Of a stretch of DNA of 64,000 bases, positions 7,415-40,895 are shown one piece after another. The first letter of the stretch is position 1. Each line of letters opens with the position of its first letter. Origin of the DNA: Raja brachyura (Eukaryota); the NCBI GenBank assembly GCA_963514005.1, contig OY740805.1, positions 23,932,001 to 23,996,000 of the forward strand, given 5' to 3'. The position numbers and the translations under genes are program-made. A model generated the notes under the pieces. The model did not search any database. It was not told the origin of the DNA and saw only the letters and a program-made list of their open reading frames with translations.

Positions 7415-7590
7415 TTAAACTGAAAATAGACACAAACAGCTGGAGTAACTCAGCGGGTCAGGCAACATCGCTGGAGAAAATGAATAGGCGACATTTGAGG
7501 TGGAGACCCTTCTTGATGAGGTATACAGCAACTCATCATTGTAACAGATAGAAGCTTCATCTAGTATTCGGGTTAGGACCGGAAGTTCAT
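7415..7590 (-). other. Probable exon 6 (3'UTR, or cytoplasmic-tail exon in the alternative frame); 3' end undefined
   Basis: Strong acceptor ctctcatttctcctttccag closing a 95-nt intron (7685-7591); runs into a short repeat near 7515. Confidence 0.55.
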
Positions 7591-7685
7591 CTGGAAAGGA
7601 GAAATGAGAGGAGATTGGATCAGAAATGAGAAGAGAGTTTGTCACATCATCGAGTCTTAGTGAAGGAGTTTGTGCACTCACTCAC

Positions 7686-7807
7686 CTGTTATCACACCTG
7701 GCCTCTCCTTATTGTTCATCTCTACAATGTTCCAACGATCATCACAAGCGTAGCCATGAGCACCAAAATGGAACTAGCTCCAAATGCCTTGTGCTGCCCA
7801 CCAACAC
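7686..7807 (-). CDS. MHC class I exon 5: [28 protein letters not shown] (stop 7724-7722) plus 36 nt of 3'UTR
   Basis: Acceptor gcttgctgggcag, donor CAG|GTGAGT; phase-1 continuation gives a linker and hydrophobic segment; unique sequence between repeats; size typical of a class I TM exon. Confidence 0.7.
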
Positions 7808-10800
7808 CTGCCCAGCAAGCAAATACAGTAGACATTAGGCAAAGTACATAGATCATAAGATCATAAGTGATAGGAGCAGAATTGGGCCATTTGGCCCATC
7901 ATGTCTACTCTGCCAAGGTTGCTCTATCTCTCCCTCCTAACCCAATTCTGCCTTCTCCCCATAACCTCTGAAACCTGTACTAATCAAGAATCTATATATC
8001 TGCCTTCAATATATCCACTGACAGCCTCCACAGCCTTCTGTGGCAAAACATTCCTCAGATTTGCCACCTTCTTTATATCTTAGGGTCATACAGCATGGAA
8101 AACAAGCACCTTGCCCTAACTCTTTGGTATAGTTAGTGTGGTTTATTGTCACGTGTACTGAGGTAAAGTGAAAACGCATCCTTGCCAACCATGCTGCCCC
8201 ATCTCAGCTAATCCTAATTGCCCATGTATCAGTCCAAGTATCATAAATGCTGTTATAGTACCTGCCTCAACTACCTCCTCTGGCATTTTGTTCTATATAC
8301 CCACCACCCTCAAAGTCCCTCAGCTTCCTATTACATCTTGTCCCTCTCACCTTAGACATATACCCTCTGGTTCTTGATTCCCCTATCCTGGATAAAATAC
8401 TGGGCATTCACCCTAAATATCCCCCTCGTGATTTATTCACCTCTATAAGATCACCACTCAGCCTCCTGTGCTCTAAGAAGTTATAGCTGTTCTCCCGATG
8501 CTCAAAATATACAGGTAAAAAGCTGGACTAACATCGTGGGCCAGGCAGCATCTCTGGAGAAAAGGAGTAAGTGATGCTTCGGGTCAAGACCCTAATTCAG
8601 ACCCTCCCCATGCTCAGTCTCTTGAGTCCTAGCAACATCCTTGTCTATTTTATCTGCACTATGTCTGATGAAGCCCAATGTACCAATAGCCTTCTTTACC
8701 GCCCTAAATACCTTTGATGCCACTGTCATGGAACTCTGTACCTGTAGTCCAAGATTTCTCTGCTCTATAATACACTTCAGGACCCTGCCAATGATGGCAC
8801 TGGAGGGGATGCAGGTGAAATTTACAGAGACCGTGTAAATTAGCCATGGAGTCATCCAGTACAGAAAAAGGCCTTTTGGCCCAATTAGTTCTTGCTGACC
8901 AAGATGACCCAGTTGCCCATGTCAGGAATATTTGAATAGGCTGTGGTTCTTAAGTTTATTTTTAGTTTAGAGATACAGCCATCTCCGCACATTAACGCTA
9001 TCCTACACATACACTGGAGGAAATTTACAATTTTACTTTGGAGTCACGTTAGTGCTGCTTACGAGTGCTGCTCCTCCAGCGTAAGTTTAAAATGGCCCGC
9101 AGGTAAGTACTTACCAGTCTGAGGTCATTTGTTGGCTCTGTGTGCTGTTGTTTTTCAGAGTGCACCATGGAGTCCAGAGAATTAATGTTGCTGCTGAGGA
9201 AGGAGGCAGCCAACAGCGTCTGAGTTCTCCTGAGCTGCAGGTTCAAACCGCAGCCCCCAACTTCACGCTGCTATAGGACACAGGTGCTCCTGGGACTGGC
9301 GGCAAAACCACCCGGAAGTCGGGCAGGTCCGCTGACTCGGCTGAGTCCGGACCGGAGGACACCCCGCTCGCGGGAAGCGATGGCGGTCGACTGTCCCGCA
9401 TAGAGCGGATGGTGGAGCTATTGCCGCAACGTGACCTACTGCAGCAGGGGCAGAGTCAAAGTGGGTCTCCTAGCAGACCCACGGCAGCATCCTTTTCAGG
9501 ACTGCCAAATGTCTCACCCTCTTCGCAGGGGAGCATTAGGAGTCAGAACTGGGCTGACTCTGAAGATGGGGGCATGGCTGAAGATACGACAATGCTAGGG
9601 GTGCCAGAAGAGGAGCTTTTGGGTATGGTCAATAAGTTTGCATTGCCTACTCAAAAAGGGCTGCCGTTACATCCTAAGTTGGCAGCCAGTATAAATGACA
9701 TGGCGACAAACCAACTACAAGAGCAAGCCATCAATGATACGGCAGCAAAGTACCTAGCTCCGGAGAATTGCATCTCCCTCAATGTGCCTGCAGTTAACAA
9801 CTCCATTTGGGGTAACATGAGCCCTGGGATAAGGAGCCAAGAAGTCAAACTCAAAAAGATCCTTAAACTGCTGGCTGCTGGGATTACGGCCATTGCCAGA
9901 ACAGTGGATGGAGTTGATATGCCGGAGGAGCTGCAGGACGCGCTAGCTCTCTTATGTAACACTCAATATGAGATCAACAGTTACAGGAAGAGCGTCATCC
10001 GGCCTGCACTCAATCCCAAGTTCGCGGGGTTGTGCAGACCCAGCAGTGCACAGCAGCCCATATTGCTATTTGGGGACAACCTGCCGAAACAGGTCAAAGA
10101 CCTCGACGAAGAGGTAAAAGCAATTGGCATGATTAAGGTGCCGGCTGCCACCGTCCCCATACCAGCGGCGGCAGCACCTCTATGCATCCACCAGCAGACA
10201 ACGCTACAGCGATAGACCACCTGCTGGTGAAAGCTCGAAGGCCGGACAACCTGCTCAACGGTCTTTTTTTAGACCATGGCCCAGCACGGTCTTCTTGGAA
10301 GATGTGCCAACCCCACACCACAGCGCCTCCACACCACAAGAAACAAGGATAGAGGCAACCAACGCAGCACCGCCGGTAACCATGGAGGTAGGTGGGTCTG
10401 GTTGCCTCATGAACATTGCATGTTTAGACTCCTCACGGGTTGGTGGACGGTTGCACTTGTTTCGGGATGCATGGAGCACTTTAACTTCTGATCCTTTCAT
10501 ACTGGAGAGTATTCAGGGATATAAAATTGAATTTGTTCACAAACTCCCTTCCCCTGTTCAACATACACCTAGTCGGAAGTTTGTACTTTCACAGAAACAA
10601 AAGACAGAAGGTCATGCTGAGAAAACCAAAAGAGGTCTCATGAGTTTGTATCGAACATTTTCACTAAAAATAAAAAAGATGGCGGATGCCGCATCATCAT
10701 AGATTTGACAGAACTGAATACTTTTGTGCAGTATGCCCATTTCAAAATGGCAACCTTTGTCATGGCCAAACAACTAATTTCCAATGGGTACTTCATGGCT

Positions 10801-13800
10801 TGCATCGACCTAAAGGATGCATACTATTCAGTGCCAATAGACAAGGATCATCGCAGATATTTGAAATTTGTCTGGATGGGGCAGCTCTGGCAGTACAAAG
10901 CACTACCTAATGGATTGTCATCAGCACCCAGACTGTTTACCAAATTATTAAAACCAGCTTTAGCGTGTGTCAGGAAACAAAAGCATATTGTTATGGCTCA
11001 CATAGATAATATTTTAATCATGGGAAAAAAATTGGAGTTGGCCAAACTGGCCGTCTCAGCCACCGAGTACCTATTTCAAAAGCTGGGATTTGTCATTCAC
11101 CCAGATAAATCAAAATTGATGCCTTCTACTACTATGGACTATTTGGGGTTCACATTTGATTCTGTTCATATGTCTGTCACTTTGCCACCAAACAAAGCGT
11201 CAGACTTGATAGAAGCATGCAACAGCCTTACTGGCATCAGGAAACCATCTATTCGGCAAATAGCCAGAGTGATTGGGAAGCAAGTGGCTGCCTTTCTAGC
11301 CACACGATTTGGCCCACTACATTACCAAAACCTACAAAGGGCAAAAATAGCAGCACTCAAGCACCATGCAGGCCATTTTGGCAGGCCAATGCAATTACCA
11401 GGGAAAGCGAAATTAGAATTATAATGGTGGATAGACAGTGCACGACATTGCTCTAACGCCAACACTATCATAAATCCCTCGGTTATACTACAAACTGATG
11501 CCAGCGCGAAAGGTTGGGGAACAACTAATACCACCTCCAGTTGTGGTGGTAGATGGAGTGCACATGAATTAACTCTACTTCCGGCACTAGGAATTAATTA
11601 TCTAGAAATGCTGGGAGCATTTCATGGACTCCGGGCTTACTGTTCGGACATGCACCATCTGCACGTACGTTTACTGTGGTGGCTTATATCAATCATATGG
11701 GTGGAATAAAGTCGATATCCTGTGACGAATTGGTCAATACAATCTGGCACTGGTGCCTAGAAAGGAACATTTGGATATCAGCCACTTACCTTCCAGGTAG
11801 GCTAAATACAGTGGCGGACACCAGGTCACACAAATTTAATGACAACACCGAATGGATGTTGGACCGAAAAGTGTTTGCCAACATTGTAGATCGGTATGGA
11901 ACACCAGATATCGACCTTTTTGCATCCAGGCTAAATCACCAAATATCAACATATGTTGCATGGGAACCAGACCCTGGGGCAGTAGCGATGGATGCTTTCT
12001 CGCTACACTGGAGGGAATTGTTTTTCTATGCATTTCCCCCTTTTCTGCCTCATCAGTCGGGTCTTGCAAAAAACTAAACAAGACTCCGCATCGGGTATTC
12101 TGGTTGTTCCCGACTGGCCTACTCAACCATGGTTCCCTGTGGTATTGGACATGGCCACAGAACCGTGTATCCCAATAAATAAACGTCCGAGTTTATTGGT
12201 ACACCCTGTGACAGCGGAGAGTTACCCGTGCCATGACTGGATAAACCTATCGGTTTGCAGGATCTGAAAAGGCCACTTCTGGGTTATGGACTCTCGGACC
12301 GAACAATCAATGCCATCACAGCATCATGCAGGGAGTCCACCAGAAGACAGTACCTCACATACGTGAAGAAATGGGAGGTGTTCTGCACAAAAACGAACAC
12401 CACATATGACACAGCCACCATCACGGAAGTGCTGGAGTTCCTGGCAAGCCTTCATTTCGATGAAGGTTTGAGCTACAGTGCCATCAACTGTGCGAGAAGT
12501 GCCCTATCCAACTATCTTGGGCGAGGTTGCAATCACCTTACAGTGGGATCTCACCCTATGGTGTCAAAATTAATGAGGGGAATATTTAATTCAAATCCCC
12601 CCAGGCCTAGATATTCCCAGACGGGATATCAGCATAGTACTAACCATGGTCCGAGGGTGGGCACCAATAACGTCTCTTTCATTGAACAAACTGACCTACA
12701 AAATGGTCATGCTGATGGCATTCGTGACGGCACAATGGGTCCAGTCCCTCCATAAGTTAAGTATGGACGCCATGGTCATAACCAACAGCAAGGTAACTTT
12801 CGTTATACAGGGGTTACTCAAGCAAGACAGGCCTGGATCATCTGGCCAAAAGTTGGAATTCCTGGCATATCCCATAGAGAGCGATCTATGTATCGTGACC
12901 CACATTTTACGCTATATACAGGTCACCAAGAGTCTCAGGGGCACGGAGAGGGCTTTGCTCATAAGCCACAAACACCCTCATCATAGAGTCACCGTGCAAA
13001 CCATTTCAAGATGGTTACGGGTGGTATTGGGTGCAGCGGGGGTGGACACTAACGTTTTTAAATCTCACTCCACCAGGGCTGCATCCACATCTGCGGCTCG
13101 GATGATGGAAGTTCTAATGGACCACATCCTTGCAACAGCGGGTTGGACAATTGAAAAAAACCTTACAGCGGTTTTACAATAAACCCGTGGCCGTACCCGA
13201 GACGTTTGCGGGAAAAATATTAAGTTCTGTTTTATAATTTCCCCGATGTAGGGGTATTATTATTTGGTATTGTGAAATAAATACCTTTTTGTTTTTTCAG
13301 CACAGTTTCATGTCTAAAATATGTTAACATACTTCCTCCATTTCTCATAATGGCAGTGTGTGAGCATGGGTTGTTCCAGGGCATGAAATCACAGAGCTTT
13401 GAAATCTTCACGTAATCACTCACGTGACTCCGAAGTAAAATAGTAAGATTAAATGAGAACTTACCAGTTTGAAGTTTGATCTTTATTTTATGAGGAGTTA
13501 CGATGAGGGATTACGTGCCCTCCGCTCCCAAACCCTCTATTATAAAGGTCAACCGGTATGCTAGTTCTCTTATCTTACTATGTTAGTCAACTCTGGTATC
13601 TGTGATTTCACACCGTTGCTTTGAAGAATGTCGCGCATGCATGCTGGCGGGGTCTTCACGTAATCCCTCATCGTAACTCCTCATAAAATAAAGATCAAAC
13701 TTCAAACTGGTAAGTTCTCATTTAATCTTACTATTTTACACTTACACCAGCCAATTAACGTACAAACTTTTACCTCTTAGGAGTGTGGGAGGAAACCGAA

Positions 13801-16800: not shown

Positions 16801-19800
16801 GGAGTTAAGTATATTGTCTGAGAAACAGTGAATGAAAAGCTTTTTGATGCATGATAAAGTCTGATTAAAGATAGTCTGAGGATTGGAGGAATGAGTGATC
16901 TGTGGTCAGCATGGACTTGATATATGCATGCTGCATCTGTCAATCAATTAAAAATGTTAAATGCAGATGCTCGTTTGCACTGAAGATAGACACGAAATGC
17001 TAGAGTAACTCAGTGGGTCAGGCAGCAGCTCTAGAGAAAAGGAATAGGTGACGTTTCGGGTCGAGGCACTTTATCAGATTGGTGTCAAAAATATTTCTTA
17101 TTTTGGGCTGTATATTTGTCCGACAGCTCAAAGGAAAGGTAATGCTGGGACTATAAGGAAAGTCAATGCCGGGAAACAGAGGACTCACTGAGCTACCACG
17201 TAAATTGCATTCTGCCCCTCCCCAGTAATTGTAGCCCCAGGCTGAGGAGCAGCACGGAAAATATATTTAACAATGCACTATCCTTCTTGAAGATGGGATT
17301 TCCCCTTTATCATCTAGTTTCCTGCTGTTTGGCCCAAGCATCAGACTCCGTCTGAAGAAGGGTCTCGACCCAAAACATCACCCATTCCTTCTCTCCAGAG
17401 ATGCTGTCTGAGTTACTGCAGCTTTTTGTGTCTATTTTTGTTTTAAACCAGCATCTGCAGTTCCTTCCCACAAGACACTCCGTCTGCTGAATACCAGCCC
17501 TTTCAACACAGTTGCGGTGGCGCAGCGGTAGAGTTGCTGCCTTAAGCGAATGCAGTGCCAGAGACCCGGGTTCGGTGCCGATTGAGGAGGCTGTCTGTAC
17601 AGAGCTTGTACGTTCTCCCCGTGACCTGCGTAGGTTTTCTCCGAGATCTTCGGTTTCCTCCCACATTCCAAAGATGTACATGTAGGTTAATTGGCTTGGT
17701 AAATGTAAAAATTGTCCCTAGTGGGTGTAGGATAGTGTTAATGTGCAGGGATCACTGGTCGGTGTGGGTCTGTTTCCGTGCTGTATCTCTAAACTAGATT
17801 GCCCACATGTTTCATGTGCCATAATGCTCCTGGATTCGAGGGTATTGACTGTAATGAGAGCTAGGTCAAACTTGGATTGTTTTTTCTGGAACGTCAGAGG
17901 CTGTCTGTAGACATGATAGCAGTTTCTAAAATTATGACAGATGTAGATTTGGTGGAGAGTGAGAATTTTTTTTTCCCCCAGAATGGAAATGACAAAGACT
18001 AGAGGGTATAGGTTTAAGGTTAGAGGGACAGGCTTTAAAGGAAGAAGAAGAAGGGTATCGGCCCGAAACGTTGCCTATTTCCTTCATTCCACAGATGCTG
18101 CTGCACCCGCTGAGTTTCTCCAGCATTTTGTGTACCCCCAGGCTTTAAAGGAGATGTGCAGAGCATGTTTATTTTTTAAACATAGGGGAGTGGTGGGTGC
18201 CTGGAATGCACTGCCAGGGGCTGTGGTGGTGAGGCAGATGTGATAGAGGAATTTAGGAGGCTTTTGTATCAGCACATGGATATGCAGAAAATGGAGCTAT
18301 GTGGTTCACATGCAGGCTGGGGAGTTTAACTGGCATACGATACGATAGAAGTTTATTTATCCCAGGAGGGAAATTGGTCTGCCAACAGTAATAAAACACA
18401 ACAAGATGCATGAAACTCAATGCATTTTACGCACGCTTTGATAGGGAGAACACCGATGTGCCTTCCCGAGCCTCTATTCGCTGTGATGGTATTTCAGTCT
18501 CAGTCACAGAGGCCGACGTCAGGAAATCCTTGAGGGGGGTGAACCCTCGAAAAGCGTCTGGACCTGATGGTATACCTGGTCGTGTCCTAAAAACCTGTGC
18601 GGACCAACTGGCTGGAGTTTTTACGGACATTTTCAACCTGTCACTCCTGAGGTCTGAGGTTCCCACCTGCTTCAAAAGAGCATCAATAATTACGGTGCCC
18701 AAGAAGAGCAAGGTGACGTGCCTCAATGACTATCGACCTGTGGCACTAACGCCTGTGGTGATGAAGTGCTTCGAGAGGTTCATCATGGCACAAATCAACT
18801 CCTACCTCGACAAAAACCTGGACCCACTGCAGTTCGCTTACCGCCACAACAGATCAACGGTGGACGCAATCTCGCTGGCCCTCCACTCCGCTCTGGACCA
18901 CTTGGACAACAAAAACTCATATGTCAGGCTGCTATTTATTGACTACAGCTCGGCATTTAACACAATCATCCCCTCCAAGCTGGTTACCAAACTCGCAGAA
19001 CTGGGTCTTTGCGCATCCCTCTGCAATTGGATCCTCGACTTCCTCACCCACAGACCACAGTCTGTTCGTATTGGTGGAAATGTGTCAGACTCGATAACAA
19101 TCAGCACGGGAGCACCTCAGGGCTGCGTGCTCAGCCCCCTGCTGTACTCACTCTATACTCATGACTGCGTAGCCGGTCATAGCGCGAACTCCATCATCAA
19201 GTTCGCTGACGACACCACTGTTGTGGGACGTATCACTGATGGGGATGAGTCCGAGTATAGAAGAGAGATCGAGCGACTGTCCATATGGTGCCAGCACAAC
19301 AACCTGGCCCTCAACACCAACAAAACCAAGGAACTGATTGTGGACTTTGGAAGGAGTAGGATGGGGACCCAGAGTCCTGTTTATATCAACGGGTCGATGG
19401 TTGAAAGGGTCAAGAGCTTCAAATTCCTGGGCGTGCACATCTGTGAAGATCTTTCCTGGTCCGAGAACACAGATGCAATTATTAAGAAAGCTCATCAGCG
19501 CCTCTACTTCCTGAGAAGATTACGGAGAGTTGGTCTGTCAAGGAGGACTCTCTCTAACTTCTATAGGTGTACAGTAGGGAGCTTGCTGACTGGTTGCATC
19601 GTGGCTTGGTTCGGCAACTTGAGCGCCCTGGAGAGGAAAAGACTCCAAAAAGTAGTAAACACTGCCCAGTCCATCATCGGCTCTGACCTTCCTTCCATCG
19701 AGGGGATTTATCACAGTCGCTGCCTCAAAAAGGCTGGCAGCATCATCAAGGACCCACACCACCCTAGCCACACACTCATCTCCCTGCTACCTTCGGGCAG

Positions 19801-22800
19801 AAGGTACAGGAGCCTGAAGACTGCAACAACCCGGTTTAAGAATAGCTACTTCCCCACAGCCATCAGGCTATTAAACCTGGCTCGGAACTCTAATCATTAA
19901 TATCCCTCCATCTGTTATTTGCACTTTATTAATTTATTAAGTCATGAGTGTATTTATGTATAGAATTGTAGTCAATGCCTTCTATGTCCTGTTGTGCTAT
20001 GCAAAGAAAGATTTTCATTGTCCTGTCAGGGACACATGACAATAAACTCTTTTGACTTTGACTTGACTTTGAAACATGGAGTTAAAGTGACTAGTGGAAA
20101 CGATTGTGGATGTTCAAAAATTGGGGATGTGGGGGGGGGGGGGGGATGGGGAAGGGGAGTCAATCTACCTTACGAGAGAAGTGGGAGGAGTTATGGTTTG
20201 GAAGCCACAGGAAGCCAAAGGATCTGTACTGCATCTTGGTGGAACTAGTCGGTTGCTGAAGGTACTTCTCAGGTTGACCAGTGTGTCATGGAGGGGGTGA
20301 GCTGTACTGTCCAAGATGCTTCGCAGTTTGAGGAACATCCCTCCAAGACCACCTCCCATGAATCCAACTCCACTCCCAGGACGGAGCCAGCCTTCCCAGC
20401 ACACGGCAGCGAAGAAGACGGCACTGGCCACCACCAATTGGTGGAACATCTGCAGCATCTTACTGCAGATGTTGAAGGAGCCTCATATTCAGCATGGACA
20501 TTGAGGGCTGAGGGCCTGTTCCTGTACTATACTGATCTATGTTTCATGTCATTCAAACCCCATTTGTTCCTTCCCCATAAAATACGGTGAATTCCCCAAT
20601 ACTCTGCCAGGTTTCCATGAAAGATGATCCAAGTCCACGCCGACCATTGGTCACCCGTTCACACTAGGCTCCTAAGTCCTAGGAGCAAAATTTGGCCATT
20701 TGGCGTACCAAGTCTACTCTGCCATTCATTCATGGCTAATCTATCTTTCCCTCTTAACCCCATTCTCCTGCTTTCTCCCCATAACGCCTGATACGGTTAC
20801 TAATCAAGAATCTGTCAATCTCCGCCTTAAAAATATCCATTGACGACCTCCACAGCCGTTTGTGGGAATGAATTCCACAGATTCACCACCCTCTGACTAC
20901 AGACATTCCTCCTCATCTCCATCCTAAAAGCAAGTCATTTTATTCTGAAGGTATGGCCTCTGGTCCTCAACTCTCCCACTAGTGGAAACATCCTCTCCAC
21001 ATTCATTCTATCCAGACCTTTCACAATTCATTAAGTTTCAATGAGGTCCCCCCCTCATCCATCTAAGTTCCAGTGAGTACAGGCCCAGTGCCTTCAAACA
21101 ATCATCATATGTGAGCCCAATCATTCCTAGAATCCTTCTCGTAATCCTTCTCTGGACCCGCTCCAATGCCAGCACATCTTTCTTCAGAGGAAGGGATGTT
21201 TCCTTAAAAATATCCATTGACTTGGCCTCCACAGCCTTCTGTGGCAATTAATTCCACAGATTCACCACCCTCTAACTAAAGAAATTCCTCATTTCCTTTC
21301 TGCAAACAGGAGTGAAGCAGATTGTGGACAACATACAATGACTTACCTCCCCTCAATGTCATTGTCAGCGTCTCTGACAGGCTGCTGTGCTGGACCTGAC
21401 AGCTGTACATCTTCGGATCTTGGCCTTGTAGCTCGATTAGCAGTTCCATCCTGTACGTGTCATCGTGGTTTGGTAGAAGGATCTCGTTTATCCCATTGGA
21501 GACGGCCTGCCCATTTCTCAGCCAAGTGGCGTTGATTGCACGGGGGTAAAAGGGAGTGATGACACACCGGAGACCCTCGCCTCTGTCAGCCGTCGGCTCC
21601 CTTTTCAACACTGTTACCCCTGGAACAACTGGGGAAGAATGGAGAGTAACGTCACTAATTTAACACAGAGGACATTACCTTACAGATTGGGATTAGGCAC
21701 ACCAACCTTGCCGTCTTACCTCACAAACTAGTTAGCTCGTTCATGAAACATGGTGGAGTACATGCCCCACTCAGTATCAATTATGCCGAAGTAGAAATGA
21801 TTCAGATCATCAAGTTTTTGGCATTAGTATTACCAACGATCTATCACAGACCAAACACATTGATACAGCAGCCAAGAAGGCATACCAAGGCCTTTACTAC
21901 CTTAGGAGACTCAGGAAATTTGGGATGACTCCAATGATTCTTACAATCCTCTACAGAAGCTCCATGCTTGGTTTGGGAACAGCTCTACCCAAGACCACAA
22001 AAAATTGCAAAGAGTTGTAGATATAGCCCAGACCATCATGCAGTCCAGACTCCCCATCACTGACTCCATCTACATTTCACGCTGCCACAAAAAAAGCAGC
22101 CAACACAATCAAAGACTTGTCCCACCCCCGGTCATCCCTTCTTCCCCCTGCTCCCGTCAGGCAAATGGTACAGAAGCTTGAAAGCATGCACCAGCACCAC
22201 CTCTGCTGCCAGGTTTCTGAGCGGTCCTTCCATAAGCTAGGGTACTGTCCAATTCACCTCTACCCCATTTGATTCTGTCTAATGGACTGATGAACTGTAT
22301 CTTCCCCTTAGCACTATCTATTGTACTTGAGTTTAACTTTATTACATTTATGTACAGTATAATCTGATCTCTCTCTCCATCCTCACCCCATTCACCTGCC
22401 TTATCCCCATAACCTTAGACACCCGTACTAATTACTGGAATTTAGAAGGATGAGAGGGGATCTTGTGGAAACATAAAATTATAAAAGGACTGAACAAGCT
22501 AGATGCAGGAAAAATGTTCCCAATGTTGGGGGGAGTCCAGAACCAGGGGCCACAGTCTAAGAATAAAGGGGTGGCCATTTAAAATTGAGATGAGAAAAAA
22601 CGTTGTCACCCAGAGAGTTATGAATTTGTGGAATTCTCTGCCACAGAAGGCAGTAGAGGCCAATTCCCTGGATGAGTTTAAAAGAGAATTAGACAGACCT
22701 CTAGGGGCTAGCGGAATCAAGGGGTATGGGGAGAAGGCAAGCACCGGTTACTGATTGTGGAGGATCAGCCATGATCACAATGAATGGCGGTGCAGGCTCA

Positions 22801-25800: not shown

Positions 25801-28800
25801 CAGTGCAGGGGATAGTGAGAGATGGTGTACTGTGCATCGGTGTGGGCAAAGCAGGGGATCACAGTGAGATGGTTTACTATGCATCAGTGTGCATAGAGCA
25901 GGGATTACAGTGAGCGATGATGTACTGTACATCTGCATGTGTATAGTGCAGGCGATAGTGACAGAGAGAGTGTACTGTGCATCATCGTGGGCAGAGAAGG
26001 GGATCACAGTGAGAGATGGTGTACTGTGGATCAGTTTATACCGCAGGGGATCACAGTGAGAGATAGTGTACTGTGGATCAGTTTATACCGCAGGGGATGA
26101 CAGTGTGAGATAGTACACTGTGAATCTGTTTGTACAGTGCAGGGGAATCACAGTGAGAGATGGTGTAGTGTGCATCAGTGTGTCTGTAGAGCAGGGCGAT
26201 CGCATTGAGACCAAAGTTGTCGGCACGTTGCTGCCTTACAGCGCCAGAGACCCGGGTTCGATCCCGACAATGAGTGTACGGAATCTGTACGTGCTCACTA
26301 TGACCACGCCGGTTTTCTCCAGGTGCCTCCGGTTTCCTCCCATATTCCAAAGCAGGGAAAGGAATTCCTGCTGCTTCATCGGATCCATCTGATAGCGTGA
26401 AATTTACTGTGAGCCTGAGAGGTGAGAGGGGCACAAAGACACATACCAAACACTGAGCCAAATATCCTCAATTGTTCAGAGACAATCATGTGAATGGTGT
26501 CTGCGATCTCCTTCTGCCGTGTCCAGTACTCTGCCGTGAAGCCGTTCGCAATCCACTGCTGCCTGGGTACCACTTCTTTGAGGGAGCTGTCAAAGTAATC
26601 TATCTGCAGATCATCCAACATCCCAACCCTGGCGAAGGCTGGCAGTTCAGGAACGCTGAGGGAGTAGGTGCCGAAATATTTCAAGCTGTGGGAATCTGAG
26701 CAAAGGACACAAGGGAAGAGTGTTAGAAACAGACCAAACGAAAAGGTCGAATGCCCAGAGAATACCCATCAGCTGAAGGGTGGCACGGTGGCATAGCGGT
26801 AGAGCTACTGCCTTACAGCACCAGAGACCCAGGTTCAATCCTGGCTATGGGTGCCTGTCTGTACGGAATTTGTACGTTCACCCCGTGACCTGCGCGGGTT
26901 TTCTCCGATATTCTCAGTTTCCTCCCACCATCCAAAGACGGACAGGTTTGTAGGTTAATTGGCTTGGTATAAATATAAAATGATCCCTAGTGTGTGTAGG
27001 GTCGTATTAATGTGCGGGGAATCGCTGGTCGGTGCCCCGAAGGGCCTGTTTCCACGCTGTATCTCTAAACTAAACTAAAACAAAAAAGAGCCTGATGGAA
27101 TAAGTTGGGGGTTAGATTTATCATCGTCACGTGTACCAAAGTACAGCAAAATGTTTTGTTTTGGATGCTATCCAAACAGGCCAGACATACTATACATAAA
27201 TACAATTAATTCAAATTGAGTACAACAGATAGAGCAAAGGGGAAAATGCAGAAAATATGGTTTACACTTTACATTTTAGAGATATAGCCCTTTTAGGAAA
27301 CAGGCCCTACGGCCCACCGAGTCTGTGCCCACCAGCAATCATCCCATACACTATCAGTATCCTACACGCTAGGGACAATATTCAATTTTACCAAAGCCAA
27401 TTAGCTGACAAACTGTAGCATCCAAAAAAACCCATGTGGTTTCAGGGAGAACGTACAAACTCCATACAGACAGCACCCGTTGTCAGTCTCTGGCGCTGTA
27501 AGGCAGCAACTCTACCACTTCACCACTGTGCCACACTTCCCAGCATTGATTTAATACAAAAGGAGCTGCAAATGCTGGTTTATACCAAAGATAGACAGAA
27601 GATTGCTGGAGTAACTCAGCAGATGAGGGAGCATCTCTTGCGAAAATGGATTGGTGATGTTTCGGGTCGGGACCCTTCTTTAGATTGATTGTAAGTGGAG
27701 TGGGGGGTGGGGACTGGAAGCAAGAAAACACCAGGACAAATGAGGGCTGGCAACATATGACCTCAGGCAGGGTGGTTCCCTGATAGGGCAAGAATGGTCT
27801 ATCTTTAGTTCTTGACATTGACAAGCAAGAATTGCATTGCCCTATCTGGGACATGACAATAAAACTCTCTTGACTCTCTTGTAAGTGTAACAGTTCCATG
27901 AACATAGCTCAACGTATGCAATGTGGCGATGGTGAATCGGACAGTACCCTAGCTTATGGAAGGACTGCTCAGAAACCTGACAACAGAGGGGATGAAGCTG
28001 TTCCCGATGTTGGGGGAGTCCAGAACAAGGGGTCACAGTCTAAGGATAAGGGGGAATTCCTTTAGGACCGAAATGAGGAAAACATTCTTTACACAGAGAG
28101 TGGTGAGTCTCTGGAATTCTCTGCCACAGAAGGTAGTTGAGGCCAGTTCATTGGCTATATTTAAGAGGGCGTTAGATGTGGCACTTGTGGCTAAAGGGAT
28201 CAGGGGGTATGGAGAGAAGGCAGGTACGGGATACTGAGTTGGATGATCAGCCATGATCACATTGAATGGCGGTGCAGGCTCGAAGGGCCGAATGGCCTAC
28301 TCCTGCACCTATTTTCTATGTTTCTATGTTTCTATGTTTCCTGAGCCTGGTGGTGTGTGCTTTCAAACTTCTGTACCTTCTGCCAGATGGGAGCAGGGAG
28401 AAGGAGGATATGAAAGGTTTGATCGAGCAGGATGTCTGTGATAATGAAGGCTGATTTTCCAAGGCCCTCTGAATTGTAGATGTCGAATACTCTCCACTTA
28501 GAGTCATCAAATCATTGAGCTCGGAAACAGGTCCTCCGGCTCAACTTGGCCATGCTGACCAAGATGCCCCATACAAGCTAGTTTCATTTGCTGCATTTTC
28601 CCCAAATAGTCATTCAGCACAGAAACAGGTCCATCAGCCCAGCTTGCCCATGCTGACCAAGGTTCTCCATTTACAATAGTCCCACCTGCCCACGTTTGGC
28701 CCATATCCTACCAAACCTTTCATTGTCATTGAGTGATACAGTGTGGAAACTGGCCCTTCGGCCCAGCTTGTCCGCACCGGCCAGCATGTCCCAGCTGCAC

Positions 28801-31800
28801 GAGTCCCACCTACCTGCGTTTGGTCCATATCCCTCCAAATTTGTCCTATCCATATACCTGTCTAACTGTTTCTTAAACATTGGGATAGTCCCAGCCTCAA
28901 CTGTTTCCTCTGGCACCTTGTTCCTTACATCCACCACCCTTTGACTGAAAAGGTTACCAAGCAGATTCCTATTAAATCTTTTCCCCTTCACCTTGAACCT
29001 AAGTACTCTGGTCCTCGATTCCCCCACACTGGGCAAGAGACTCTGTGCATCTACCTGATCTATCCCCCCTCGTGATTTTGTACACCTCTATAAGATCACC
29101 GCTCATCCACCTGCGCTGGAAGGAATAGAGATCCAGCCTACTCAACCTCTCCCTATAGCTCAGGCCCTCTAGTCCTGGCAACATTCTCATTAATCTTCTC
29201 TGAACCCTTTCAAGCTTGACAATATCTTTCCTATAACATGGTGCCCAGAACTGAACACAATACTCTAAATGCGGCCTCACCAACGTTCCTATCCGATTGT
29301 CTTTTATATGTTGTTGTTCCTGCATCAACTACCTCCTCTGGCAGAATGAGTGCACCTCCAACCTGCAGACACCATCCCAAAATAAACACTCCCCCTTGTG
29401 TTTGCATTCTGTGCCCCACTATCACTAACAGCCCTTGTTAAAGAAGCAGTACAAGCAGGGCCGGCACAGTGGTGCAGCAGGTTTATAGCGCCAGGGGACT
29501 CAGTGTGGTCTGAAGGACCCATTTCCACGCTATATCTCAAAATAAACTAAAACTTTCCACGCAAAAGGGTGACCAAAACTGAATATAATACTCCAATGTC
29601 ACCACACCTGCGCCTTGTACAGCTGTAACATAACATCACATTTTTATTTCAAAATAGACTTTATTCGAGTAATAAATATATACAATACATCAACCGTGCG
29701 AAAAAAAATCCATCCAACATTTTCGGAAGCTATACAAATTGCTCCATACAGTCTGTATACATTTTTCAAAAATTTCAAATTTCGCGAATCGATCCCCCAC
29801 CCGTGCCACTCATGTGGCCCTCCGGCATGGGATACCTTCCCTTATTTTGAGGGGCGTCTCCACCATACTGTGCCCCCCATGTCCAGCAGCGGAAGGACCT
29901 TAGACTGTGGCCCTCCCCCACCGTGCCTTGGCGTTGGCTGCCCCGAGCTTCAATGTGTCCCTCAGCACGTACTCCTGCAGTCTGCAGTGGGCCAGTCGGC
30001 AACATTCCCCGACGGACATCTCGCTCTGCTGGGTGGTGAACAAAGCTCGGGCAGACCAGAGAGCGTCTTTCACTGAGTTGATTACCCTCCAGCAGCACTT
30101 GATGTCAGTCTCTGAATGTGTCCCTGGGAACAATCCGTAACTCACCGAGTCCTCTGTGACGGAGCTGTTTGGAATAAAGCGTACCAGGGACCCTTGCATT
30201 TTTCTCCAGACTCTTTGGGCAAATCCACACTCTGCAAAGAGGTGGGCAACCGTCTCCACTCCATAGCAGCCGTCCCGAGGGCAGCGTGCGCTGGCAGTGA
30301 GGTTCCGACGGTGCAGGAAGGATCTGACTGGGAGGGCTCCCCTCACCGCCAGCCAAGCCAGGTCTTGGTGCTTGTTGGTGAGTTCTGGCGATGAAGCATT
30401 TTTCCAGACAAGCTGGGCAGTCTGCTCAGGGAACCACGCCACCGGGTCCATCGAGTCCTTTCCCCGCAGTGTCTGCAGGACATTCTGTGCTGACCACTGC
30501 CCAATGGACATGTGGTCAAAGGTGTTGGTCCGGAAGAACCTTTCCACAGACGACAGATGGGGCGGCAGTGTCCAGCTGACTGGCACCATGCGTGGCATCT
30601 GCGCCAGGCCCATCCTTCGCAACACCGGGGACAGGTAGAACCTCAGCAAGTAGTGACACTTGGTGCCCACGTGCCTTGGCTCTACACTCCGCCTGATGCA
30701 GCCACACACGAAGGTGGTCATCAGGATGAGAGCGACGTTGGGCACGCTTTTACCCCCGTTGTCTGCTGACTTGTACATTGTGGCCCGTCGCACCCGGTCC
30801 ATCCTCGACCCCCAGATAGTTCATCGGGAAGACGGCCCGGGTGATCCCTGTGGCGTAGGAAGGAGGGACAGGCCACACCTGTGCCAAGTACAGCAGGCCT
30901 GAGAGCACCTCACACCTGATAACCAAATTCTTTCCCGTTATGGAGAGGGAGCGTTGCCTCCACAGCTCCAGCTTCCTCCCTACCCTGGCTATCCGCTCCA
31001 GCCAATTCTTGTTACATGCCTCAGCCCCCCCGAACCAGATCCCCAGCACCTTCAAGAGGTCAGGCTTGATGGTGAAGGGGACGGAAGATCTGTCGGGCCA
31101 GTTGCCAAAGAGCATGGCCTCGCTCTTCCTGCGGTTCACCCTGGCTCCCGTGGCCGACTCAAACTGGTCGCAGATCCTAATCAGTCTGCGGACCGACCCT
31201 GGATCCGAGCAGAAGACAGCGACATCGTCCATGTACAGGGAGGTCTTTACTTGAATGCCCCCACTGCCGGGCAGTGTCACTCCTCTAATGCTCGCATCCT
31301 TCCTGATGGATTCGGCAAAGGGTTCAATACAGCAGACAAACAAGACAGGAGAGAGAGGGCAACCCTGCCTGACTCCAGACCTTACAGGGAAACTGTCTGA
31401 TTCCCACCCATTGATGTGGACTGCACTACGGATGTCGGTGTAGAGCAGTTTGATCCAATTCCTGATTCCCTCCCCAAAACCCATTTTGGAGAGCACGTCC
31501 TGCGAAATCCTGTCAAAGGCCTTCTCCTGGTCCAAGCTGACTAGGCAGGCGTCCACCCGACAAGACATGAGATGTCCATAACATCACAACCTCTATACTC
31601 AAACCCCTGACTGATGAAGGCCAGTGTTCCCAAAGTCTCCTTGACCAACTTATCTAACTGTGAAGTCACTTTTGAGGAAGTATGTGACTGCACTCATTGA
31701 TCCCTCTGCTCTATAACACTCCCCAGAGCTCAACCCTTCAGTTTGTAGGTCCCGCGCTAGGTTGTGACCTTTCCTTGGTGCATCCAGCACTTACCGTGTT

Positions 31801-34800: not shown

Positions 34801-35760
34801 CCCTCTGATCCCCTTAGCCACAAGGGCCACATCTAACTCCCTCTTAAATATAGCCAATGAACTGGCCTCAACTACCCTCTGTGGCAGAGAGTTCCAGAGA
34901 CCCACCACTCTCTGTGTGAAAAAAGTCCTTCTCATCTCAGTCCTAAAGGATTTCCCCCTTATCCTTAAGCTGTGACCCCTTGTCCTGGACCTCCCCAACA
35001 TTGGGAACAATCTTCCTGCATCTAGCCTGTCCAACCCCTTAAGAATTTTGTAAGTTTCTATACGATCCCCTCTCAATCTCCTAAATTCTAGAGAGTATAA
35101 ACCGAGTCTATCCAGTCTATACCTATCCACTTTACTTTTAAATGTTAAAATCGATCCTGCCTCCACCACTTCTGCAGGAAGATCATTCCACACAGCCACC
35201 ACTCTCTGAGTAAAGAAGTTCCCCCTCATGTTACCCCTAAACTTCTGTCCCTTAATTCTCATGTCATGCCCTCTTGTTTGAATCTTCCCTACCTTCAATG
35301 GGAAAAGCTTATCCACGTCAACTTTGTCTATCCCTTTCATCATTTTAAAGACCTCAATCAAGTCCCCCCCCCTCCCCCTTTAACCTTCTGCGCTCCAAAG
35401 AATAAAGACCTAACTTGTTCAACCTTTCTCTGTAACTTAGTTGCTGGAACCCAGGCAACATTCTAGTAAATCTCCTCTGTACGCTCTCTATTTTGTTGAC
35501 ATCCTTCCTATAATTAGGCGACCAAATCTATTCCTATTTCCCACCCCTTGGTCAAAGATTGTCCACTTCCCTCCACTGGTGCTGTCCAACCCGCTGAGTT
35601 TCTCCTGTTATTTTCTCGAAGAATATAAATTGGCTTTTCCAAATGCAATCCGTGACATTCGCCGCCCCACAACCACTGTCTTACCTGCGTGGTCTCCCGA
35701 TACAGAGCAGAGAGAAAAGGCGGCGAACAGGAGTGTTGCAGGTACGGTGTAACTTTGCAT
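7722..35760 (-). CDS. Non-classical MHC class I-like heavy chain, spliced CDS join(35760-35685, 26695-26447, 23907-23638, 21628-21347, 7807-7722), 320 aa
   Basis: Five exons read by hand. All four joins are phase 1 with GT..AG, and the lengths 76+249+270+282+86 = 963 nt stay open to TAG. Domain order is leader/alpha1/alpha2/alpha3 (C1-set Ig)/hydrophobic C-terminus. Linking exon 5 across a 13.5 kb intron is an inference. Confidence 0.85.
9409..10215 (+). pseudogene. DIRS ORF1 (gag-like)
   Basis: Position in the element; P-x-N-C...VP-x-VN-x-x-IW and LFG motifs typical of DIRS ORF1; frameshifted near the end. Confidence 0.7.
10430..12267 (+). pseudogene. DIRS pol: RT - RNase H - DAM-like methyltransferase, frameshifted
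   Basis: [11 protein letters not shown]; [14 protein letters not shown]; AHIDNILI (YxDD mutated); TDASAKGWG; INYLEM; [10 protein letters not shown]; YAFPPF; [11 protein letters not shown]. Confidence 0.9.
12255..13235 (+). pseudogene. DIRS tyrosine recombinase, frameshifted
   Basis: SAM-like N-terminus ([12 protein letters not shown]), [12 protein letters not shown] (H-x-x-R), ATAGW. Confidence 0.9.
17515..17795 (+). mobile_element. tRNA-derived SINE (HE1/V-SINE-like); other copies at ~2765-2900, 4375-6050 (split), 8960-13925 (split by DIRS), 26778-27080, 27280-27535, 32115-32410, 45992-46275, 47640-47945, 57543-57840, 62230-62890
   Basis: A box TGGCGCAGCGG, B box GGTTCGRTCC-like, conserved GTACGTTCTCCCCGTGACC core, (CTAAA)n tail. 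Confidence 0.85.
18417..20069 (+). mobile_element. Rex1/Babar-type LINE, 5'-truncated; RT ORF open 18410-19900
   Basis: [54 protein letters not shown]; AATAAA followed by a (TTGAC)n-like tail; TSD TGAAAC (18411-18416, 20070-20075). Confidence 0.9.
21347..21628 (-). CDS. MHC class I exon 4, alpha3 C1-set Ig domain
   Basis: LRC...FYP..I..TW...LPNHDDTY...[10 protein letters not shown]; acceptor ttcttccccag, donor G|GTAAGT; 282 nt. Confidence 0.95.
23375..23600. repeat. Degenerate ~23-bp tandem repeat (AGCTCCCTCAC core) just inside intron 3
   Basis: About 8 imperfect units. Confidence 0.7.
23638..23907 (-). CDS. MHC class I exon 3, alpha2 domain ([11 protein letters not shown]...[21 protein letters not shown])
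   Basis: Not in the ORF track; translated by hand. Q96-like Gln, GC (C101) and C164 equivalents, typical L-x-x-G-x-x-x-L-x-R end; acceptor ttccttacag, donor G|GTAGGT; 270 nt. Confidence 0.9.
24360..26200. repeat. Degenerate ~45-bp minisatellite (GCAGGGGATCACAGTGAGAGATGGTGTACTGTG...) in intron 2, interrupted by two TEs
   Basis: Unit visible at 24360-24600, 25210-25303 and 25790-26200. Confidence 0.85.
25303..25790 (-). mobile_element. CR1 3' fragment inserted in a minisatellite
   Basis: CATAGAAA tail and CR1 3' sequence. Confidence 0.85.
26447..26695 (-). CDS. MHC class I exon 2, alpha1 domain (DSHSLKYF...[13 protein letters not shown]...PRQQW...EYWTRQ...)
   Basis: Canonical SHSLxYF start, G-x-x-DD-x-x-x-x-x-FDS, PR-x-x-W and YW motifs; acceptor ctttgctcag, donor G|GTATGT; 249 nt. 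Confidence 0.95.
27985..28340 (+). mobile_element. CR1 3' fragment
   Basis: [10 protein letters not shown]...GYGEKAG followed by (TTTCTATG)n. Confidence 0.85.
29641..31576 (-). mobile_element. Tx1/L1-clade LINE, 5'-truncated and frameshifted
   Basis: [27 protein letters not shown]-terminal CPxxxC...H...C zinc knuckle; AATAAA and A-rich tail; 12-bp TSD CATAACATCACA (29629-29640, 31577-31588). Confidence 0.9.
34545..35525 (-). mobile_element. CR1 3' fragment with another CR1 3' fragment (34681-35117) nested in it
   Basis: Two CR1 subfamily tails; TATAC duplicated at both junctions. Confidence 0.8.
35685..35760 (-). CDS. MHC class I exon 1, signal peptide [25 protein letters not shown]
   Basis: Strong Kozak context GCCGCCAAGATG, hydrophobic core, phase-1 donor G|GTAAG, located in a CpG-rich region. 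Confidence 0.85.
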
Positions 35761-37970: not shown

Positions 37971-40895
37971 TTAAAGAAGGAACTGCAGATGCTGGAGAAT
38001 CGAGGGTTACACAAAAAGCTGGAGAAACTCAGCGGGTGCAGCAGCATCTAAGGAGCGAAGGAGATAGGCGACGTTTCGGGTCGAGACCCTTCTTCAGACT
38101 GGTCAGGGATCAGGGAAACGAGAGATATAAACAGTGATGTGGAGAGATAAGGAACAATGAGTGAAAGATATGCAAAAAAGTATTGGTGATAAAGGAAGCA
38201 GGCCATTGTAAGCTGTTTGTGGTGTGAAAATGAGAAGCTAGTGCGACTGGGGGGGGGGGGGGGGAGATGGAGAAGGAATGTCAGGGCCAGAGGGCTGAGG
38301 GAGAGGTGGGGGGGAGGCATTCTGTGTTAACAGAATTGAGAAAATTCAATGTTTAAGCCCAGAGGATGCAGACTCCCCAAGCGGAATATGAGGTGCTGTT
38401 CCTCCAACTTGCGGTGTTGATCACTCTGGCCATGGAGGAGGCCCAGGACCGAGAGGTCGGATACGGAGTGGGAGGGGGAGTTGAAGTGCTGAGCCACCGG
38501 GAGGTCAGGTTGGTTATTGCGGACCGAGCGGAGGTGTTCGGCGAAACGATCGCCCAGCCTCCGCTTCGTCTCACCGATGTAGATCAGCTGGCATCTGGAG
38601 CAACGGATGCAGTAGACGAGGTTGCAGGGGGTGCAGGTGAACCTCTGTCGGACTTGGAATGACTGCTTGGGTCCCTGAAAGGACTGGATGGGGGAGGTGA
38701 AGGGACAAGTGTAGCATCTCTTGCGGTTGCAAGGGAAAGTGCCCGGGGAAGGAGTGGAGCGGGAGGGAAGGGAAGAATTGACGAGGGAGTTGCGGAGGGA
38801 GCGGTCTTTGCAGAAGGCAGACGGGGGATGATGGGAAGATGTGGCGAGTGGAGGGGTCACGTTGGAGGTGACGAAACTGGCGGAGGACTATCTGTTGTAT
38901 GCGCTGGCTGGTGGGGTGAAAGGTGAGGACCAGGGGGACTCGGCCCTTGTTGTGAGTGGGGGAATGGGGAGAGAGGGCAGTGTTGCGGGGTATGGAGGAG
39001 ACCCTGGTGCGAGCCTCAGCTATAGTGGGGGAGGGGAAACCCCGTTCTCTGAAGAACGAGGACATTTGCGATGACCTGGTGTGGAACACGTCATCCTGGG
39101 AGCAGATGCGGCGTAGACGGAGGAATTGGGAATAGGGGATGGAGTCCTTACAGGAAGCAGGGTGGGAGGAAGAGTAGTCCAGGTAGCTGGTGAGGTCAAG
39201 GAATGGTAGGGAAATGTCGTAAATGGTCCAAGTATATTTGAGTGCCGGATGGAAGTTGGCGGTGAAATGGATGAAGTCAGCCCGTGCCCAGAGGAGCAAC
39301 CCATACCCATCCATTGACACCCTCCTCCGCCTAGCGGAGTTGGTCCTTACCCTCAACAACTTCTCTTTTGACTCCTGCCATTTCCTCCAAACACAAGGCG
39401 TAGCTATGGGCACACGCATGGGCCCTAGCTACGCCTGCCTCTTTGTCGGGCACGTCGAACAATCTTTGTTCTCGGCGTACCAGGGCCCCACCCCCGACCT
39501 TTACCTCCGTTACATTGACGACTGCTTTGGTGTCACCTCCTGCATCCACACACAACTGACTGACTTCATCCATTTCACCACCAACTTCCATCCGGCACTC
39601 AAATATACTTGGACCATTTACGACATTTCCCTACCATTCCTTGACCTCACCATCTCTATTGCAGGTGATACACTCCTGACTGACATCCACTACAAACCAA
39701 CTGACTCCCACAGCTACCTGGACTACTCTTCCTCCCACCCTGTTTGCTGTAAGGACTCCATCCCCTATTCCCAATTCCTCCGTCTACGCCGCATCTGCTC
39801 CCAGGATGACGTGTTCCACACCAGGTCATCGCAAATGTCCTCGTTCTTCAGAGAACGGGGTTTCTCCTCCCCCACTATAGATGAGGCTCGCACCAGGGTC
39901 TCCTCCGTACCCCGCAACACTGCCCTCTCTCCCCATTCCCCCACTCACAACAAGGGCCGAGTCCCCCTGGTCCTCACCTTTCACTCCACCAGCCAGCGCA
40001 TACAACAGATAGTCCTCCGCCAGTTTCGTCACCTCCAACGTGACCCCTCCACTCGCCACATCTTCCCATCATCCCCCCTGTCTGCCTTCTGCAAAGACCG
40101 CTCCCTCCGCAACTCCCTCGTCAATTCTTCCCTTCCCTCCCGCTCCACTCCTTCCCCGGGCACTTTCCCTTGCAACCGCAAGAGATGCTACACTTGTCCC
40201 TTCACCTCCCCCATCCACTCCTTTCAGGGACCCAAGCAGTTATTCCAAGTCCGACAGAGGTTCACCTGCACCCCCTGCAACCTCATCTACTGCATCCGTT
40301 GCTCCAGATGCCAGCTGATCTACATCGGTGAGACGAAGCGGAGGCTGGGCGATCGTTTCGCCGAACACCTCCGCTCGGTCCGCAATAACCAACCCGACCT
40401 CCCGGTGGCTCAGCACTTCAACTCCCCCTCCCACTCCGTATCCGACCTCTCGGTCCTGGGCCTCCTCCATGGCCAGAGTGATCAACACCGCAAGTTGGAG
40501 GAACAGCACCTCATATTCCGCTTGGGGAGTCTGCATCCTCTGGGCTTAAACATTGAATTTTCTCAATTCTGTTAACCCAGACTGCCTCCCCCCCCACCTC
40601 TCCCTCTGCCCTCTGGCCCTGACATTCCTTCTCCATCTCCCCCCCCCCCCCCAGTCGCACTAGCTTCTCATTTTCACACCACAAACAGCTTACAATGGCC
40701 TGCTTCCTTTATTACCAATACTTTTTTGCATATCTTTCACTCATTGTTCCTTATCTCTCCACATCACTGTTTATATCTCTCGTTTCCCTGATCCCTGACC
40801 AGTCTGAAGAAGGGTCTCGACCCGAAACGTCGCCTATCTCCTTGGCTCCTTAGATGCTGCTGCACCCGCTGAGTTTCTCCAGCTTTTTGTGTAAC
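37971..40895 (+). mobile_element. Penelope-like element (RT + GIY-YIG): inverted partial copy 37971-~39282 joined to forward copy ~39283-40895
   Basis: GVAMGTRMGPSYA, YLRYIDDCF, NLIYCIRC..C..IYIGET, GLN; two copies in inverted orientation; 17-bp TSD TCATAGCTGCTTACCTG (37954-37970, 40896-40912). Confidence 0.95.
40804..40831 (+). ncRNA. Minimal hammerhead-ribozyme-like motif in the Penelope terminal repeat (mirror copy 38070-38097 on minus)
   Basis: CTGAAGA-A-GGGT(CTCG)ACCC-GAAACGTC: CUGANGA and GAAA core boxes, helix II, palindromic ACGU, GUC site; helix I only about 2 bp. Confidence 0.6.

What the first reader, a model, noticed from the sequence alone, without database searches (positions are those of the whole stretch)
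7686..7807. Class I heavy chain apparently ends in a GPI-anchor signal instead of a TM plus cytoplasmic tail
Seen: alpha3 (…TLTMTLRG) splices in phase 1 to [28 protein letters not shown]. This gives small residues (G/G/V/G/G, candidate omega site), a polar spacer, then about 15 hydrophobic residues running to the stop, with no basic stop-transfer residues or tail. The stop lies 36 nt before the next donor, within the ~50-nt window that normally escapes NMD. Established: this is the layout of a GPI-attachment signal, and GPI-linked class I-like molecules are known in mammals (Qa-2, RAE-1/ULBP). Inference: a GPI-anchored, possibly sheddable, non-classical class I molecule in a cartilaginous fish. 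I do not know of a described example.
Basis: partly seen in the sequence, partly recalled or inferred. Interest (0 to 1): 0.85.

Follow-up and report, generated by a model that had tools for sequence, protein, structure and literature searches.

The report
Skate UFA gene, likely GPI-anchored
This is a skate's copy of UFA, an already named CD1-like immune gene of sharks and rays; its spliced message ends in a short greasy tip with no inside-the-cell tail, a trait shared across sharks and rays that likely means the protein is tied to the cell surface by a glycolipid (GPI) anchor.

Summary
A five-exon gene (minus strand, 35760-7686, all introns GT-AG) encodes 320 aa ending in a hydrophobic stretch and TAG, 36 nt before the next donor. 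A contig from a run holding all sampled alpha3 words shows the exon spliced, without indel. The gene is UFA: its alpha2 hits only PDB 8GM8 (shark UFA) and it groups with it at 100/99. All 30 UFA rows that use this exon end 0-4 residues after the hydrophobic run; 73 of 74 other class I-like proteins keep a tail. Outside skates the run is only 10-15 residues, like GPI controls from this genome. GPI anchoring is likely (0.72) but untested: my omega-site rule also passes 5-7 of 10 artificially truncated TM proteins, and the skate run (21 residues) could span a membrane. I found no paper stating it, but no primary UFA paper was in the library. This scan noted the same trait twice before on other genomes (e1-9194433, e1-9270334).

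The parts
35685..35760 (-). Exon 1: ATG and signal peptide (76 coding nt, phase 1)
   Evidence: tblastn with skate orthologues, 72% over 25 aa; GT donor
26447..26695 (-). Exon 2: alpha1 domain
   Evidence: single close copy in the genome
23638..23907 (-). Exon 3: alpha2 domain, UFA type, lacks the classical peptide-anchoring residues
   Evidence: only PDB hit is 8GM8, E 9e-12; alignment
21347..21628 (-). Exon 4: alpha3 (C1-set) domain, ends in phase 1
   Evidence: one DNA match in the genome
7808..21346 (-). 13.5-kb intron; no alternative TM exon found
   Evidence: scan of acceptor-like sites
7686..7807 (-). Exon 5: last coding exon; candidate GPI signal, stop, 36 nt of 3'UTR
7800..7807 (-). 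Candidate omega, omega+1, omega+2 = G293 (codon split by the intron), V294, G295; 27 residues follow omega (inferred)
   Evidence: only site passing the rule in this protein
7725..7787 (-). Uncharged C-terminal run A300-L320 (21 aa; strongly hydrophobic core from I306), no residue after it
   Evidence: modelled as helix in the Amblyraja orthologue
7722..7724 (-). Stop codon TAG, kept in 4 of 4 paralogous exon copies
7591..7685 (-). 95-nt GT-AG intron in the 3'UTR
   Evidence: skipped by contigs of 4 of 4 runs laid
7440..7590 (-). Exon 6 (3'UTR; 3' end unknown, contigs stop in a repeat). In frame with alpha3 if exon 5 were skipped (58 codons open)

Best explanation
This gene is the skate orthologue of UFA, a CD1-like nonclassical MHC class I heavy chain, and its tail-less hydrophobic C-terminus is likely a GPI-attachment signal. 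Shown: intact five-exon gene, spliced transcript, stop directly after the hydrophobic run, UFA membership, same ending across sharks and rays. Inferred: after signal-peptide import the ER GPI transamidase would cut near G293, drop about 27 residues and attach GPI, leaving the alpha1-alpha2-alpha3 ectodomain on the outer leaflet. With no cytoplasmic residues it could carry no sorting or signalling motif, so it would traffic as a GPI protein and could be shed. Lipid binding is taken from two papers that cite it as unpublished or personal communication; it was not tested here.
For: Gene and splicing. UFA identity: P0012 equals PDB 8GM8, titled 'shark nonclassical MHC class I, UFA' and named Gcirratum_UFA in the supplement of PMC10751288; window alpha2 hits only 8GM8; 22-row clade at 100/99. 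Tail: 30 of 34 UFA rows examined use this exon, and all 30 end 0-4 residues after the hydrophobic run; 28 of 30 pass the omega rule taken from PMC10491789; 13 of 15 further cluster members pass. In the 26 non-skate rows the run is 10-15 residues and the best 19-residue insertion score is +1.2 to +5.8, matching 5 of 5 GPI-family controls from this genome (two alkaline phosphatases, 5'-nucleotidase, two glypicans: +0.7 to +5.2), whereas 14 TM controls score -6.7 to 0.0. Among 146 other class I-like representatives, 74 had a hydrophobic segment after alpha3: 73 have a tail, 1 does not; median score -3.4, only 4 of 73 at +1.2 or above (72 rows dropped: 38 without my alpha3 motif, 34 without a segment). 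A PIGT/Gpi16 gene is in the genome. Mammalian precedent: MILL1/2 and Qa-2, ULBP2.
Against: No experiment and no trained GPI predictor. My omega rule is loose: 5, 6 and 7 of 10 ordinary TM class I proteins pass it once cut 0, 3 or 6 residues inside the end of their helix, and 10-15% of shuffled tails pass. In the 4 skate rows, this gene included, the uncharged run is 21 residues with score -0.5 to 0.0, which overlaps the weakest TM controls and could span the bilayer. Omega would sit only 2-3 residues after the last alpha3 strand, short of the roughly 10-residue flexible linker described in PMC10491789. 2 of 30 rows (P0006, P0040) miss my hydrophobicity threshold. The insertion scale values are recalled and position-independent. 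Most orthologue ends are database gene models. Pro-ULBP2 can reach the surface on its uncleaved signal, so this layout does not guarantee cleavage.
Confidence: 0.72

Rival explanations
1. The hydrophobic end is not cleaved and serves as a tail-less single-pass anchor, at least in skates, or a mix of cleaved and uncleaved forms exists.
For: Skate run is 21 uncharged residues, score -0.5 to 0.0; AlphaFold models a 16-residue helix at the end, with low confidence; pro-ULBP2 is surface-anchored by its uncleaved signal; short linker before omega.
Against: 26 of 30 orthologue rows have only 10-15 residues after a Pro or charged residue and 5 have a charged residue within the last four positions; 73 of 74 other class I-like proteins with a TM segment keep a tail; small residues sit at the omega and omega+2 positions in 28 of 30.
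Confidence: 0.18
2. The main product is secreted or ER-retained: the weak C-terminal segment slips through the membrane, or exon 5 is skipped to give a soluble chain.
For: Skipping exon 5 leaves a 58-codon open frame without a TM segment; two Narcine isoform models end without a hydrophobic segment (P0010, P0032); Qa-2 has such a soluble splice form.
Against: Contigs of 4 of 4 runs include exon 5; all 15 listed members of the 42-member skate cluster are 316 aa and end in exon 5; the exon is conserved in 17 genera.
Confidence: 0.07
3. Pseudogene or assembly error: a frameshift or premature stop cut off a normal tail.
For: Another frame stays open across the exon 5-exon 6 junction, and the 3'UTR intron lies where a TM-to-cytoplasmic intron would be.
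Against: Transcript contig without gaps over the exon; TAG kept in 4 of 4 paralogous copies; same end position in orthologues from sharks and rays.
Confidence: 0.02

Closest known systems
Nurse shark UFA (PDB 8GM8; Gcirratum_UFA in the supplement of PMC10751288)
   Same: Same lineage: alpha2 hits only 8GM8, shared clade 100/99, linked to other MHC-Ib genes, classical anchor residues largely lost.
   Different: 8GM8 is a 265-aa ectodomain that stops at the end of alpha3, so it says nothing on the anchor; main texts of PMC10751288 and PMC12562908 contain no 'GPI'. Skate tail is longer and more hydrophobic than shark tails.
Mouse MILL1/MILL2 and Qa-2 (Q7/Q9)
   Same: Three-domain class I heavy chains held by a GPI anchor (PMC6193965, PMC6292030, passages read); Qa-2 also has a soluble form by loss of exon 5.
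   Different: Mammalian, not orthologous as far as known (not tested on a tree); Qa-2 binds peptides; GPI is shown by experiment there and only predicted here.
ULBP/RAET1 NKG2D ligands
   Same: Class I-related, some GPI-anchored (PMC10491789, PMC6769792, passages read).
   Different: They lack alpha3; UFA has it.
CD1 family
   Same: Reported lipid binding and CD1-like groove for UFA (PMC10751288, PMC12562908, cited there as unpublished or personal communication).
   Different: Orthology is called hard to assess in PMC10751288. CD1 isoforms have TM segments and tails, most with endosomal sorting motifs (recalled); UFA has no cytoplasmic residues.

Membership tests
Elasmobranch MHC-Ib lineage UFA | Groups with nurse shark UFA apart from other class I lineages | tested here: met
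   22-row clade with 8GM8, support 100/99, in a tree of 32 rows, midpoint root; UGA, UBA and UEA sequences were not in the tree
Elasmobranch MHC-Ib lineage UFA | UFA-type alpha2 domain | tested here: met
   1 hit among 177,635 PDB sequences at E <= 0.01, 8GM8
Elasmobranch MHC-Ib lineage UFA | Lies in an MHC-Ib cluster, low copy | tested here: met
   Another class I gene 44-60 kb beyond the window end and several more on the same contig; one close alpha3 copy
Elasmobranch MHC-Ib lineage UFA | Binds lipids | not testable with these tools
   Literature statement only
Classical peptide-presenting MHC class Ia | Eight conserved peptide-anchoring residues (HLA numbering recalled) | tested here: not met
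   Only Y7 and Y59 kept, 2 of 8, read by eye from the alignment
Classical peptide-presenting MHC class Ia | TM helix, basic stop-transfer residues, cytoplasmic tail | tested here: not met
   0 residues after the hydrophobic run
GPI-anchored proteins | N-terminal signal peptide | tested here: met
   Leader exon with hydrophobic core, homologous to orthologue leaders; no SignalP run
GPI-anchored proteins | Small omega, non-Pro omega+1, small omega+2 | tested here: met
   G293-V294-G295; 28 of 30 UFA rows have such a site; the rule is loose
GPI-anchored proteins | Hydrophilic spacer of 8-12 residues, then 15-20 hydrophobic residues to the C-terminus, no tail | tested here: met
   27 residues after omega, hydrophobic core from omega+13, nothing after it
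GPI-anchored proteins | Flexible polar linker of about 10 residues before omega | tested here: inconclusive
   Last alpha3 strand ends at 285 in the orthologue model and omega is 289; 287-309 has pLDDT under 50
GPI-anchored proteins | Only marginally hydrophobic C-terminal segment | tested here: inconclusive
   Met by 26 non-skate rows (+1.2 to +5.8); borderline in this gene (-0.3) on a recalled, simplified scale
GPI-anchored proteins | Cleavage and GPI attachment (PI-PLC release, PIGK dependence) | not testable with these tools
   Needs experiment
CD1 family | Orthology with tetrapod CD1 | not tested
   No CD1 rows in the tree; PMC10751288 calls it hard to assess

The most novel reading that the evidence does not exclude
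UFA is a GPI-anchored, lipid-presenting class I molecule whose anchor predates the shark-ray split and is not yet in print: the first GPI-linked CD1-like antigen presenter and the first GPI-linked class I lineage outside mammals, made by a stop at the end of an ancestral TM exon, with a possible soluble form by exon skipping.
Probability: 0.4. Interest if true: 0.65.

Novelty: new variant of a known kind. Interest (0 to 1): 0.45.

Why it matters
If UFA is GPI-anchored, the oldest known CD1-like molecule has no tail to route it to endosomes, so it would have to pick up lipids in the secretory path, at the surface or through GPI-protein recycling, and could be shed. That gives a direct, cheap test of how early lipid presentation was wired, and adds an independent, very old origin of GPI anchoring in the class I family. 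The weight is limited: the gene and its structure are known, GPI-linked class I molecules exist in mammals, the trait is visible in public protein records, and the authors of 8GM8 may already have reported it.

Tried and rejected
Frameshift or assembly error: rejected. Alternative TM exon: of 371 acceptor-like sites in 41,346 nt downstream of alpha3, only exon 5 and one site at 9823, opposite a retroelement-like frame and with a poor score, passed. No RNA holder was listed as such; this is no evidence either way. Protein search for the exon-skip tail found nothing (2 candidates, none at E <= 10), weak evidence. ESM Atlas with the last 55 residues of P0004 returned only C1-set clusters, best 0.89, uninformative on the anchor. 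UPAR_LY6 search for more GPI controls found nothing, with no positive control. The AlphaFold model (mean pLDDT 66.5) matched 8GM8 first (Z 17.2) but with rmsd about 12 A, so it was used for naming only. Literature: 10 searches; none listed a primary UFA/UGA paper or a paper on GPI-anchored class I in cartilaginous fish. The UDA and UEA papers (PMC7002201, PMC8454915) were not held, nor did I see the Almeida 2021 thesis cited in PMC10751288.

Full report
Observation. On the minus strand, 7807-7686 is a 122-nt exon with AG acceptor and GT donor; TAG lies at 7724-7722, 36 nt before the donor. tblastn with relatives placed the other exons, and the model leader 35760-35685, alpha1 26695-26447, alpha2 23907-23638, alpha3 21628-21347 and this exon has GT-AG at every intron and one open frame of 320 aa.

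Is it transcribed and real? Run X12 holds all 26 sampled alpha3 words. One of its contigs (1287 nt) lies on 7813-7686, skips the 95-nt intron and continues on 7590-7440, with 0 gaps and 1 other letter. The 6-nt overhang with one mismatch is what the end of alpha3 would give, and the 1014 nt upstream match 877 coding nt plus a 137-nt 5'UTR. Contigs of X1, X15 and X3, from three other organisms and studies, show the same two pieces. The runs are not on record as RNA and the alpha3 joint was not read directly. Four partial duplicates of the exon in this genome (88% alike) keep the TAG. A scan of 371 acceptor-like sites in 41,346 nt found no competing TM exon.

What the gene is. The alpha3 search returned 16 proteins, all named ones from cartilaginous fish. 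One, P0012, is identical to PDB 8GM8, titled 'Crystal structure of shark nonclassical MHC class I, UFA'; the same sequence is named Gcirratum_UFA in the supplement of PMC10751288 (search passages seen). The window's alpha2 alone hits only 8GM8 in the PDB, and a 32-row tree puts the window protein, nearest Amblyraja P0004 at 82%, in a 22-row clade with 8GM8 at 100/99 (long-branch warning for the eel rows, no UGA, UBA, UEA or CD1 rows). Only 2 of the 8 classical anchor residues are kept (numbering recalled). PMC10751288 (passages and section 9 read) calls UFA CD1-like from unpublished data; PMC12562908 (passages) says crystal structures and mass spectrometry suggest UFA and UGA bind lipids, as personal communication. 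Neither main text contains 'GPI'.

The C-terminus across the lineage. Of 34 UFA rows examined, 30 use this exon; the other 4 are two Narcine isoform models and two hypothetical models with other ends. All 30 stop 0-4 residues after the hydrophobic run. Named records span 17 genera: Amblyraja, Rhinoraja, Leucoraja, Pristis, Narcine, Mobula, Hemitrygon, Hypanus, a 'Pristio...' record, Heptranchias, Cetorhinus, Carcharodon, Chiloscyllium, Heterodontus, Stegostoma, Scyliorhinus and Mustelus. Most are database gene models; the skate cluster has 42 members, 14 of the 15 listed from Logan contigs of 1.1-1.35 kb. By contrast, of 146 further class I-like representatives (none with a UFA alpha2), 74 had a hydrophobic segment after alpha3, and 73 of these have a tail (72 rows dropped for lacking my alpha3 motif or a segment).

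GPI test. I coded the pattern given in PMC10491789 (passages): small omega, omega+1 not Pro, small omega+2, polar spacer, hydrophobic end. It is met by the window protein at one site (G293-V294-G295, 27 residues to the end), by 28 of 30 UFA rows, by 5 of 5 GPI-family controls taken from this genome (their GPI status is recalled at family level) and by 0 of 14 TM controls. Nulls: 17 of 926 open-frame ends, 10-15% of shuffled tails, but 5-7 of 10 TM proteins cut at the end of their helix. So the rule shows compatibility only. The more telling feature is the segment itself: in 26 non-skate rows it is 10-15 residues, usually after a Pro, with a 19-residue insertion score of +1.2 to +5.8, like the GPI controls (+0.7 to +5.2) and unlike TM segments (median -3.4; 4 of 73 at +1.2 or above). 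The skate rows, this gene included, are the weak point: 21 uncharged residues, score -0.5 to 0.0. The scale is recalled and simplified. The genome has a PIGT gene.

How it likely works. Inferred: the chain enters the ER, the transamidase cuts near G293 and adds GPI, and the three-domain ectodomain sits on the outer leaflet with no cytoplasmic part. It would then lack any tail-based sorting signal and could be shed. The 3'UTR intron 36 nt past the stop sits where a TM-to-cytoplasmic intron would be, which suggests origin by a stop at the end of an ancestral TM exon; truncated TM controls passing the rule show how short that path is. Skipping exon 5 would give a 58-codon open tail without anchor, as in soluble Qa-2, but no such product was found. 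Association with beta2-microglobulin was not tested.

Comparison and novelty. Works like mouse MILL and Qa-2 in anchor (PMC6193965, PMC6292030; passages) and like CD1 in reported ligand; is a member of UFA. Ten literature searches listed no paper on a GPI-anchored class I in cartilaginous fish, but also no primary UFA paper, although structures were released in 2024 and 2026; the UDA and UEA papers were not held. The trait may therefore already be known to the authors. Two earlier notes of this scan on other genomes reached the same reading; I saw them after forming mine, and they are not independent support. Verdict: real feature, known gene lineage, likely GPI anchor (0.72), interest 0.45.

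Noticed in passing
G000:C25:22519510-22519869, C25:19473518-19473879, C79:157608-157969, C910:334797-335158: Four duplicates of the 3' part of the locus (about 88% alike, matching pieces of window 1-17.7 kb) carry exon 5 and exon 6 but no class I domain exon in the roughly 40 kb fetched upstream of each: apparent orphan fragments.
   Followed up: partly
window 7590-7415 (-): Exon 6 is in frame with alpha3 and open for 58 codons (40 or more in the four duplicates), so skipping exon 5 would give an anchor-less chain; the last part is repeat-derived and the open frame may be chance.
   Followed up: partly
G000:C25:24034358-24055725 (L090-L092): Neighbouring class I gene upstream, same strand, with a normal TM exon and tail; probably UDA (label from an earlier scan note, not tested). 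Database models P0002, P0005 and P0006 fuse it with UFA.
   Followed up: partly
P0037-P0049, P0062-P0075, P0001/P0007/P0009: UFA appears in several copies in stingrays, mobulids and sawfish, all with the tail-less end, against the 'single or low copy' description in PMC12562908.
   Followed up: no
P0003, P0017-P0030: The skate cluster members differ at several alpha1 and alpha2 positions; allelic variation, paralogues or assembly mosaics not told apart.
   Followed up: no
window 9277-13179 (+), 18395-19897 (+), 29903-31583 (-), 39223-40572 (+): Long open frames that look like retroelement genes (DIRS-like reverse transcriptase and recombinase, LINE reverse transcriptases, Penelope-like element); labels recalled, no family search run.
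   Followed up: no
P0053-P0056, P0116: An eel and tarpon class I group has a TM helix with only a 5-12 residue basic tail; unnamed P0116 is the one non-UFA row scored as tail-less and fails the omega rule.
   Followed up: no
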